This document shows positions 10,361 to 12,631 of a DNA stretch of 64,000 bases, in pieces (position 1 is the first letter of the stretch; every line of letters begins with the position of its first letter). Where the stretch lies: contig OX597817.1 of NCBI GenBank assembly GCA_951406725.2, forward strand, positions 132,618,001 through 132,682,000. Direction: 5' to 3'. The DNA is from Octopus vulgaris. Taxonomy: Eukaryota. Position numbers and translations under genes: made by a program. The notes below the pieces were generated by a model. It was not told the DNA's origin and made no database searches. It worked only from the letters and a program-made list of their open reading frames with translations.

Positions 10361-10749
10361 CAACTTCATAGGTGAGATGAGGAATTATGCACATTATTTA
10401 CGTTATTTACATTTGACGGATATTTGTCCTTAACTTGCTTGTTGTTAACACAACTTTTCGGCTGATATACCCCCCCAGCCGAGTTCGATTCCAGGCAGTG
10501 ACCTGAATAATAATAATAATAATAATAATAATAATAATAATAATAATAATAATAATAATAATAATAATAATAATAATAATAATAATAATAATAATAATAA
10601 TAATAATAAAAATAATAATAATAATAATAATAAGAAGAAGAAGAAGAAGAAGAAGAAGAAGAAGAAGAAGAAGAAGAAGAAGATGAAGAAGAAGAAGAAG
10701 AAGAAGAAGAAGAAGAAGAAGAAGAGGAGGTGGAGGAGGAAGAAGAAGA

Positions 10750-11259
10750 AGATGGTATAGGCACACACCAGAAAAGGTCGCAGAAAACGAGAAAGCAACC
10801 ATACTCTGGGATATGCCAATACACACAGATAGAGTAATTAAGGCCAACAGACCAGATATAGTTGTCAGAGATCATGAAGAAAAGTATGCTTTCTAATTGA
10901 TGTATCAATACCAGAAGATGACAACGTGTCTCTAAAAGAAATGAAGAAACTTTCAAAATACAAAGACCTGGAAATAGAGGTAACCAGAATGTGGAATCTA
11001 AAAACAGAAACAATCCCTATCATAGTAGGTGCATTAGGCATGATAAAAAAATATTCAGACAAATACATAACAAAAACACCAGGACTTATGAACACATATA
11101 ACATACAGAAAATTGCACTACTAGGCACTGCACACATCCTACGCAGAACACTTTCCATACAGTAACCATAAGAGCATCACAACAAATCACAGCACGTACC
11201 AAAGGCACACAGAGCTGCGCTCGGTAGTGAAGTGAAAGCTATAAAAATAAAACTACTGA
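10750..11259 (+). mobile_element. 5'-truncated R4/Dong-clade LINE (restriction-like endonuclease C-terminus and 3' UTR)
   Basis: RWYRHTPEKVAENEKATILWDMPIHTDRVIKANRPDIVV, one frameshift, then CFLIDVSIPEDDNVSLKEMKKLSKYKDLEIEVTRMW...IPIIVGALG; PD-(D/E)xK RLE; ends in (TAA)n. Confidence 0.9.
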
Positions 11260-11403
11260 ATAATAATAATAATAATACTAATAATAATAATAATAATAAT
11301 AATAATAATAATAATAATAATAATAATAATAATAATAATAATAATAATAACACCATTGAAAAAATACCTTAGGAATGAGAACCCGGGTTCGAAATTTCCT
11401 TAA

Positions 11404-11449
11404 GACACCTGATGAAGGCTGGAGGGTATATCAGCCAAAACGTTGTGTT
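11404..11449 (+). ncRNA. Minimal type-I hammerhead (G12A in this copy)
   Basis: GACAC-CTGATGA-A-GGCTG-loop-CAGCC-AAAA-CG-TT-GTGTT; the inverted copy at 10447-10480 retains CAGCC-GAAA. Confidence 0.8.
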
Positions 11450-12631
11450 AACAACAAACAAGAAGAGGGCAAATATCCGTCAAATGTAAATAATGTAAAT
11501 AATGAACGATATTTTCATCATTGGTGCTTATACAAAGTGATGAAATGAATGCTAATATTTGGAAGAAAAACTTTTATTGCCTTTAAGTAAATAGAGTAAA
11601 TTTCTCATTTTGTAGAACTACTATCACTTATTTCCTATCCTCTTCCTCCTACCATCAAGCTTAGAAAGTGCACTCATGCTGCACCTCTTACTTTAACTCA
11701 CCCCTTTTCTACTTTGTATTTTCTTGGGAAAAATATCATCGTCAGTAGAGCGGATTTTTCAAAGTAAATTACAGATAATTAATGACTAACCTTGGAATTT
11801 AAATTCACGAAACCTATTCTCGGTCTTAATATAAACCAATTCTTCAACAAATTGCGCTACTGTGAGAATCAGTGGTGTTGTGTTCGATAGTCAACGTTGC
11901 ACGTTAAGTTCGTTTTTTTATTGAGAAATGCAATAAGTTTTAGGCTCTTAAAGATTCTGCTCATCTCATAGATATCGTAGCAAATTGCTGTCATAGATTG
12001 AAAAGTGTGAAAAATTATCTTCACATTATTGACAAGCATGAAAGCAAATGATTAGAGGATATAGAAGCACATTTAAATAGTTTCACTCTATATAGTGTCA
12101 CCATGAAAGATTCTTTATATAACAGTATCATCTATTTATTTTTGGAAACGCTGTGGCAGAGGCGGACCTGAATATCTGATCGCTTCTATTTTCGTCATCG
12201 GATAACGTCATCTCCTCTCTTTAGACAATATATGTTCATAGCACACATAATTCACCATTGCAAGTGGGCGTTGAGACACCGAGGTGTTTTCTCCTGGTTG
12301 TGCGTCTCATCAGGGAATGCTACCCGCTACACCGATGAGTATGACAAAGCACAAGCTCTTTGGATTGGTGCTTTTACTGCGTGCAGTCCTTGAATTATTT
12401 TCTGTTTAGCAAGCTTTGGCATGCATCAATTAATAGATTGCTTTCTGATTTCTATAAACTCCAGACCGTTCCCTTGCGAGATCCATCGGTCCGGTGACAC
12501 ACATACATACACACATGTACGTACACATACAGATTCAATGTAGATTCATCTCTAAAAACTATCTATAATTCACCCATCACTAATAAAAATTTATCTAATT
12601 CACAGATGTCTGACGAATACAAATGTGTAAT

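What the first reader, a model, noticed from the sequence alone, without database searches (positions are those of the whole stretch)
10391..11504. Possible tRNA-head SINE mobilised by a Penelope element
The order is: inverted 3'-end copy, GAGTTCGATTCC (Pol III B-box-like), (TAA)n, then a tail with a degenerate hammerhead-like module (11366-11405) and a hammerhead (11404-11449). The two arms complement each other to give an intact core. SINEs normally borrow LINE tails, so a Pol III head on a hammerhead/pLTR tail would be an unusual SINE class. Only half the head is visible here.
Basis: partly seen in the sequence, partly recalled or inferred. Interest (0 to 1): 0.75.

Follow-up and report, generated by a model that had tools for sequence, protein, structure and literature searches.

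The report
tRNA-headed repeat with Penelope-type hammerhead tail
This is a truncated, partly inverted copy of an abundant short repeat that joins a tRNA-like head to a hammerhead-bearing tail, split by an unrelated retrotransposon fragment; it is likely a SINE-like parasite copied by Penelope elements instead of LINEs, though its partner element and its polymerase III transcription remain unshown.

Summary

The B-box is no chance neighbour. In 4 of 4 laid runs, 44-229 contigs extend it upstream with one consensus that has tRNA spacing back to about the D-loop. Four of 5 listed contigs leaving the (AAT)n end on the opposite strand go into the tail.

The locus has Penelope insertion signatures: an inverted 5'-truncated arm, an optional ~33-nt end extension on one arm, no target duplication, and a minimal hammerhead. 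Each arm has a core lesion, so this copy is likely dead.

Not shown: A-box, the family's 5' end, Pol III transcription, cleavage, an autonomous partner.

Pol III-plus-hammerhead repeats are known (schistosome Sm-alpha), and retrozymes are proposed Penelope derivatives. A dispersed, head-first SINE-like family with Penelope integration marks was not found in ten paper searches. Verdict: new variant of a known kind.

The parts
10374..10391 (-). 18 nt of the family's optional 3' end extension (Penelope-type 'tail', about 33 nt in full), on the left arm only
   Evidence: 119 X1 contigs carry one loose-end consensus before 10374; listed contigs span 10374-10472 in X1 and X13; summed depth here is 0.08-0.14 of that at 10397-10409. 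The right flank does not resemble it beyond chance (419 of 3000 random 21-mers score as well).
10392..10480 (-). Inverted, 5'-truncated copy of the tail: hammerhead stem II to the common 3' end; G12 intact, C15.2 changed, no CTGATGA
10479..10505 (+). 3' part of the tRNA-like head: T-arm positions 49-65 with B-box (10481-10492) and a short linker; CC at 10479-10480 is shared with the inverted arm
   Evidence: Sequence; upstream consensus in 171/178/229/44 contigs of X1/X5/X13/X18
10506..10750 (+). (AAT)n then mostly (AAG)n: left part of the internal microsatellite
10751..11258 (+). 5'-truncated 3' end of an unrelated non-LTR retrotransposon: C-terminal restriction-like endonuclease region (one frameshift near 10885-10890, stop 11163-11165) and 3' UTR ending in CTG before (AAT)n; likely a later insertion into the microsatellite
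   Evidence: 84-87% identity to P0001 residues 135-271 and 61-67% to the C-terminus of RT-bearing P0007; RPD...D...K motif; P0007 matches R2 structures
11259..11350 (+). (AAT)n: right part of the microsatellite
11366..11405 (+). Hammerhead-like relic or second T-arm-like hairpin; not a canonical core
   Evidence: z -0.69; sequence
11404..11449 (+). Minimal type I hammerhead: stem I GACAC/GTGTT, CTGATGA, extra A, stem II 11417-11436, no helix III loop (palindrome AACGTT), predicted cut after 11444; G12 is A in this copy
   Evidence: loose ends behind 10472 in 198/179/208/63 contigs continue the arm into CTGATGA; layout as in PMC4209133
11450..11504 (+). AC-rich 3' part of the tail with two 9-nt units, ending at the family's main 3' end
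   Evidence: depth falls beyond the equivalent point of the left arm

Best explanation
[quoted passage not shown] SHOWN: the head reaches back to about tRNA position 20 with canonical spacing, it is joined to the tail in other copies, and copies carry an inverted arm and an optional ~33-nt end extension. INFERRED: a full unit of about 260-300 nt is transcribed from the internal promoter; a Penelope-type protein binds the tail, nicks AT-rich DNA and starts reverse transcription at one of two internal sites. The template would be uncleaved RNA, since copies keep both sides of the cut site. Here two cDNAs, one per strand, would have been joined at a CC microhomology: one running from 11504 to tRNA position 49, the other from inside the extension to stem II. 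A restriction-endonuclease-type retrotransposon fragment likely landed in the (AAT)n later. The internal promoter would free each full copy from the tandem arrangement that Penelope elements are thought to need.
For:: one upstream consensus before 10479 in 4 of 4 runs (171, 178, 229, 44 contigs, agreement 0.72-0.88; three studies besides X1, which may be the source sample), reading CT-ACT-AA loop, 5 nt, AGATT, then the window's T-arm. Of 15 joints shown (of 63), 5 contigs leave the (AAT)n end on the opposite strand and 4 go to the arm end at 10470-10472. Other inverted junctions run into the head at different points: 10405 to the anticodon loop (X1), 10425 to 10483 (X5), 10472 to 10481 (X1, X13). 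Summed depth on the B-box piece is 0.44-0.88 of that on the arm. The extension bin holds 0.08-0.14 of the main depth. No target duplication over 5 nt. [quoted passage not shown] Hammerhead mutants do not block insertion by the anole element in vitro.
Against: The A-box and the family's 5' boundary lie beyond the 30-letter limit. No autonomous element with this tail was found (the Penelope-like fragment at 39571 shares no sequence with it). One of the 5 opposite-strand contigs joins head and (AAT)n to another repeat family (10355, X5). The linkage rests on few contigs, and 48 joints and 952 loose ends were not shown. Lack of T4 on the sense strand is what 77% of shuffles give. The folds are not better than shuffles, Rfam finds no hammerhead, and G12 in the family consensus could not be read because the variant table has no rows past 10438.
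Confidence: 0.68

Rival explanations
1. The head is a passenger inside the terminal repeat or 3' UTR of a longer Penelope-like element (a SINE that once inserted there). The short copies are ordinary 5'-truncated insertions made from Pol II transcripts.
For: Heavy 5' truncation is normal for these elements (PMC8557442). Only 30 nt upstream of the junction were seen. SINE insertion into a terminal repeat is the origin proposed for Helenus, Ajax and Cassandra (PMC10886601).
Against: No long element with this tail was found (all weak tests). Head depth is close to tail depth, so truncation between them is not dominant.
Confidence: 0.2
2. The head plus (AAT)n is a separate simple SINE moved by the restriction-endonuclease-type LINE seen here. 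It lies next to Penelope tails only because it inserts into (AAT)n tracts.
For: Head and LINE fragment both end in CTG before (AAT)n. One contig joins head and (AAT)n to another repeat. The LINE fragment shows that this tract attracts insertions.
Against: The shared end is only 3 nt. In this locus and at three other junction types the inverted tail joins directly into the head with no (AAT)n between them, which fits head and tail on one template; 4 of 5 listed contigs link head to tail.
Confidence: 0.08
3. The family is a non-LTR retrozyme like Sm-alpha: it spreads from tandem arrays through self-cleaved circular RNA, and this is a dispersed leftover.
For: Type I hammerhead plus a tRNA-derived part, as in schistosome repeats (PMC6765202, PMC4918200). 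One X1 contig shows a head restarting after (AAT)n (10513 back to 10480).
Against: This copy is not tandem. Both arms end 60 nt past the cut site, at the main end or in the extension, not at the cut. No listed joint runs from the tail end into a head (15 of 63 shown).
Confidence: 0.03
4. The B-box is a chance neighbour of an ordinary truncated Penelope terminal repeat.
For: The motif occurs 5 times in the window, and ARAGORN finds no tRNA here.
Against: One tRNA-spaced upstream consensus in 4 of 4 runs, at a depth near that of the tail.
Confidence: 0.01

Closest known systems
Sm-alpha / Sj-alpha repeats of schistosomes
   Same: SINE-like, apparently Pol III-transcribed, contain a tRNA sequence and a type I hammerhead (PMC6765202, PMC4918200, passages).
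   Different: They occur in tandem with canonical hammerheads, and the promoter ends up at the 3' end of cleaved units, so single copies cannot propagate. Here the head is 5' of an uncleaved minimal hammerhead in a dispersed copy with an inverted arm and an optional extension.
Non-LTR retrozymes (PMC7229834; bioRxiv 10.64898/2026.07.22.740005)
   Same: Short, non-coding, type I hammerhead, proposed to derive from and be moved by Penelope elements.
   Different: Defined as tandem repeats. No tRNA head or Pol III promoter appears in the preprint's main text or in the passages of PMC7229834 seen.
Penelope-like elements and their non-autonomous forms (MRC1; PMC8557442, PMC11167929, PMC4209133)
   Same: Minimal hammerhead with an extra nucleotide before stem II and a short stem I, inverted 5'-truncated copy, optional 30-40-bp tail.
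   Different: No ORF here. No tRNA head was described in the passages read.
tRNA-derived SINEs, including octopus OK, OR1 and OR2 (Ohshima and Okada 1994, seen only as a citation)
   Same: tRNA-like head with B-box, short, high copy number.
   Different: The simple repeat is internal, not terminal; no target duplication; the 3' end is Penelope-like. Whether this family is one of the three named octopus SINEs was not testable; OR2 is cited as a CORE SINE (PMC4758252).
TRIMp3: Cassandra, Helenus, Ajax (PMC10886601)
   Same: A small-RNA-derived Pol III promoter on a non-autonomous element that does not depend on a LINE.
   Different: Those are LTR-type, with primer site, polypurine tract and target duplications (5 bp stated in the abstract).
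Dong/R4-type non-LTR retrotransposons (for the nested fragment only)
   Same: C-terminal restriction-like endonuclease after RT and zinc knuckle; Dong-R4 is reported as abundant in octopus (PMC13282606, PMC9115989); (TAA)n targeting by Dong is recalled.
   Different: Clade (Dong-R4 versus Hero or others) was not tested; no tree was built.

Membership tests
SINE (SINEBase definition, PMC3531059 section 4) | Short (<1 kb), interspersed, non-coding | tested here: met
   Visible parts sum to under 300 nt without the nested fragment; single dispersed locus in 64 kb
SINE | At least 100 copies | tested here: met
   171-229 distinct contigs carry the head junction in each of 3 DNA runs; summed depth is about 10^5 times that of single contigs (contigs, not loci; the tool warns depth is no copy number)
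SINE | At least 60% identity to a tRNA over 60 nt | tested here: inconclusive
   Only about 47 nt seen (positions ~20-65); anticodon loop, variable region and T-loop have canonical spacing by eye, stems imperfect; no alignment to a tRNA was run
SINE | A-box and Pol III transcription | not testable with these tools
   The A-box lies just beyond the 30-letter loose-end limit; contigs show no starts
SINE | Terminal simple-repeat tail and LINE partner | tested here: not met
   The simple repeat is internal; the 3' end is a fixed hammerhead-bearing sequence; no target duplication over 5 nt. Not a SINE in the strict sense, though it would work like one
Penelope-like element | ORF with RT and GIY-YIG endonuclease | tested here: not met
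   No such ORF at the locus; at most non-autonomous
Penelope-like element | Minimal type I hammerhead in the terminal repeat | tested here: met
   Motif at 11404-11449 with the layout of PMC4209133; G12 changed in this copy; Rfam gave no match
Penelope-like element | Inverted 5'-truncated copy adjacent to the 5' end | tested here: met
   further inverted junctions
Penelope-like element | Optional 30-40-bp tail, often at one end only | tested here: met
   18 nt in the window plus 15-17 nt in a loose-end consensus of 119 X1 contigs; 0.08-0.14 of main depth
Penelope-like element | 3' end shared with an autonomous element | tested here: inconclusive
   None found by weak protein searches or by two exact motifs in one supplement of Naiad, Chlamys and Hydra consensus sequences; no genome held
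Non-LTR retrozyme / Sm-alpha type | Tandem units, each with a hammerhead | tested here: not met
   Not tandem at this locus; genome-wide arrays not testable
Non-LTR retrozyme / Sm-alpha type | Self-cleavage and circular RNA | not testable with these tools
   Needs experiment or raw RNA reads
Restriction-endonuclease non-LTR retrotransposon (nested fragment) | C-terminal PD...D...K endonuclease after RT and zinc knuckle | tested here: met
Dong/R4 clade (nested fragment) | RT phylogeny | not tested
   No tree built; the fragment has no RT

The most novel reading that the evidence does not exclude
A SINE class that parasitises Penelope-like elements instead of LINEs: a head-first tRNA-derived Pol III promoter on a minimal-hammerhead terminal repeat, in which every full single copy can be transcribed and re-copied without tandem arrays, amplified to tens of thousands of copies and carrying the Penelope two-start-site tail signature.
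Probability: 0.55. Interest if true: 0.72.

Novelty: new variant of a known kind. Interest (0 to 1): 0.55.

Why it matters
SINEs are defined as dependants of LINEs. A high-copy tRNA-headed family integrated by Penelope enzymes would be the Penelope counterpart of the Pol III-driven LTR miniatures (TRIMp3). It would also define a cis-element of under 200 nt that suffices for trans-mobilisation by a telomerase-related reverse transcriptase, and tens of thousands of natural insertions would let one test how inverted arms and the optional tail arise and whether hammerhead cleavage is needed. The idea has precedents (Sm-alpha, retrozymes), and the consensus may already sit unnamed in repeat libraries.

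Tried and rejected
No whole genome is held. No second copy in the window. Rfam: no hammerhead or tRNA at the locus; the whole-window scan listed mostly microsatellite-driven microRNA matches below gathering score (150 of 376 shown). Exact motifs gave 0 hits in viral, metagenome and prokaryote contigs. No RNA holder listed; X18 is only guessed to be RNA and is kept as contigs, so it says nothing on expression. The empty site could not be seen: 10150-10188 has no cover in any laid run. Absence of T4 terminators as evidence for Pol III: rejected, 77% of 10,000 shuffles also lack one. Target duplication: only a 5-mer. Right flank as a decayed extension: rejected. Protein searches for spurious or real ORFs running through the element: 0 hits and 1 unrelated repeat protein, P0114. 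Pfam finds nothing on the endonuclease fragment itself. Supplements: motifs absent from the one file of PMC8557442 and of PMC13282606; the octopus transcriptome file of PMC9115989 was not held as text; SINEBase tables unavailable; bioRxiv supplements closed. These unseen files, Repbase, Dfam and the Zenodo library of PMC13282606 may already hold the family. Earlier findings of this scan: nothing by sequence or place; 8 unrelated notes by words.

Full report
WHAT IS IN THE SEQUENCE. The window is animal-type DNA rich in microsatellites; by recall its repeats resemble those of octopus, which no call tested. The left arm 10392-10480 is the reverse complement of 11417-11504 (89% over 89 nt). It joins GAGTTCGATTCC (10481-10492) through a shared CC at 10479-10480. 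Then come (AAT)n 10506-10631, mostly (AAG)n to 10750, a 510-nt insert, (AAT)n 11259-11350 and the tail 11351-11504. There is no second copy in the window and no genome is held.

THE MISSED INSERT. 10753-11165 encodes, across one frameshift, the C-terminus of a non-LTR retrotransposon protein. It is 84-87% identical to P0001 and 61-67% to the end of the 1224-residue P0007, which carries an RT domain and matches R2 retrotransposon structures. The RPD...D...K endonuclease motif is present; 112 of 175 candidates scored. The fragment is flanked by microsatellite on both sides, so it most likely entered the tract after the short element; the order is inferred. It is not part of the family. Its clade was not tested.

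THE HEAD IS REAL. I laid 4 of the 24 listed runs on 10150-10521; X1 may be the source sample, the other three come from three other studies and three organism labels. In every run a large set of contigs matches from 10479 onward and carries one consensus upstream (171, 178, 229 and 44 contigs, agreement 0.72-0.88). Read against tRNA numbering by eye, it gives a D-loop end, a short anticodon stem around a CT-ACT-AA loop, 5 nt, AGATT, and then the window's CCGAG-TTCGATT-CCAGG T-arm: 15 nt from anticodon loop to T-loop, the canonical distance. The stems pair imperfectly, as in SINE heads. The tool prints 30 letters, which stops at about position 20, so the A-box was not seen. ARAGORN and Rfam report nothing at the locus, as expected for 17 nt of T-arm.

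HEAD AND TAIL TRAVEL TOGETHER. Of 63 joints 15 were shown. Five contigs leave the (AAT)n end on the opposite strand: 4 go to the arm end at 10470-10472 (X5 three, X13 one), the geometry of an intact head-(AAT)n-tail copy, and 1 goes to a neighbouring repeat family. Inverted tails join directly into the head at other points: 10405 to the anticodon loop (X1), 10425 to 10483 (X5), and 10472 to 10481 (X1 two, X13 one; possibly this locus). Summed depth on the B-box piece is 0.44-0.88 of that on the arm. Depth on the arm (1.3-2.5 million in X1 against 7-23 for single listed contigs) is like that of the neighbouring repeat, which has 9 other matches in the window. This points to 10^4-10^5 copies, though the tool warns that depth is no copy number.

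PENELOPE SIGNATURES. (1) The hammerhead at 11404-11449 has a 5-bp stem I, CTGATGA, an extra A before stem II, and no helix III loop but the palindrome AACGTT. This fits the minimal hammerheads described for Penelope repeats, thought to act as dimers (PMC4209133, passages). Loose ends behind 10472 (198, 179, 208, 63 contigs) confirm CTGATGA in the family. Folding energies are not better than shuffles and Rfam misses it. (2) An inverted 5'-truncated copy next to the 5' end is typical (PMC8557442, passages). (3) Most copies end near the point where both arms end, but a minority continue: the left arm carries 18 nt more, and 119 X1 contigs add 15-17 nt, about 33 nt in all, at 0.08-0.14 of the main depth. 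A 30-40-bp optional tail arises from two internal start sites of reverse transcription and is called unique to Penelope elements (PMC11167929, parts 1-2 of 4 read). (4) There is no target duplication. An ATG in the core (11412) opens 25 codons before a stop in a 9-nt unit; in the anole element the ORF also starts at the hammerhead, so the tail may be a terminal repeat plus ORF start. That is a lead only.

THIS COPY IS LIKELY DEAD. The right arm has A at G12. The left arm keeps G12 but has A at C15.2, lacks the first half of the core and is antisense. The upstream module 11366-11405 lacks C3, U4 and G5. The copy also lacks the A-box half of the head. The arms differ by 11%, so the insertion is old or came from two templates.

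MECHANISM. Most likely (0.68) a Pol III transcript of about 260-300 nt is bound by a Penelope-type protein and copied uncleaved, since copies keep both sides of the cut site and hammerhead mutants still insert in vitro. Two cDNAs on opposite strands would give the inverted structure. Promoter use, partner and two-cDNA joining are inferred. The main rival (0.2) is that the head is a passenger in the end of a longer Penelope element; only the sequence upstream of full heads can decide this. A separate LINE-moved head (0.08), a tandem retrozyme (0.03) and chance (0.01) are less likely.

COMPARISON WITH KNOWN ELEMENTS. Schistosome Sm-alpha/Sj-alpha already combine a tRNA sequence, apparent Pol III transcription and a hammerhead, but in tandem units whose promoter lies at the 3' end after cleavage (PMC6765202 and PMC4918200, passages). 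Animal retrozymes are proposed non-autonomous Penelope derivatives (bioRxiv 10.64898/2026.07.22.740005, parts 1-3 of 5 read; PMC7229834, passages). Pol III heads on LTR miniatures are known (PMC10886601, passages). By the SINEBase definition (PMC3531059, section 4) the family meets length and copy number, is inconclusive on tRNA identity and fails the LINE-type tail. Ten full-text searches turned up no description of a dispersed tRNA-headed family with Penelope integration marks. A 2026 octopus repeat annotation lists 893 unclassified recently active SINE families without anatomy (PMC13282606, parts 1-2 of 3 read). Also seen as passages: PMC4758252, PMC6962438, PMC9115989. Ohshima and Okada 1994, Ferbeyre 1998 and Lunse 2017 were not readable, and the library lacks most subscription papers, Repbase and Dfam, so the family may be catalogued already.

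VERDICT. A real family, probably SINE-like and Penelope-dependent; a new variant of a known kind. Interest 0.55.

Noticed in passing
window 13165-13235 (+): A second hammerhead-like motif (CTGATGA, hairpin, GAAA, palindromic AAGCTT), single copy in the window, unrelated to the family; fold z -2.23 but not in hammerhead form. Possibly another Penelope terminal repeat.
   Followed up: partly
window 39571-40050 (+): Broken C-terminal part of a Penelope-like ORF (cysteine motif, then a GIY-YIG-like VIY...YIG stretch) with a frameshift; no Pfam hit; shares no sequence with the family's tail.
   Followed up: partly
window 10190-10360: 3' part of another abundant repeat (9 other matches in the window) directly left of the insertion.
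   Followed up: partly
window 21300-21672 (-): ARAGORN 'tRNA-Val' at 21600-21672 is followed by a repeat body, so it is likely a SINE head.
   Followed up: partly
window 12630-12790 (+): Member of a third short repeat family with 7 other partial matches in the window.
   Followed up: no
window 24093-24989 (-): 298-codon open frame with a zinc knuckle (PF00098), likely the first ORF of a retrotransposon.
   Followed up: no
window 54704-55039 (+): DDE_3 transposase fragment (PF13358), Tc1-like by recall.
   Followed up: no
window 10745-10758 (+): The nested fragment starts where its own coding sequence (Arg-Trp-Tyr) overlaps the (AAG)n tract, a microhomology-like 5' junction.
   Followed up: no
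run X1, table 5c: One contig shows head, (AAT)n, a few tail-like letters and then a second head: a partial tandem of heads.
   Followed up: no
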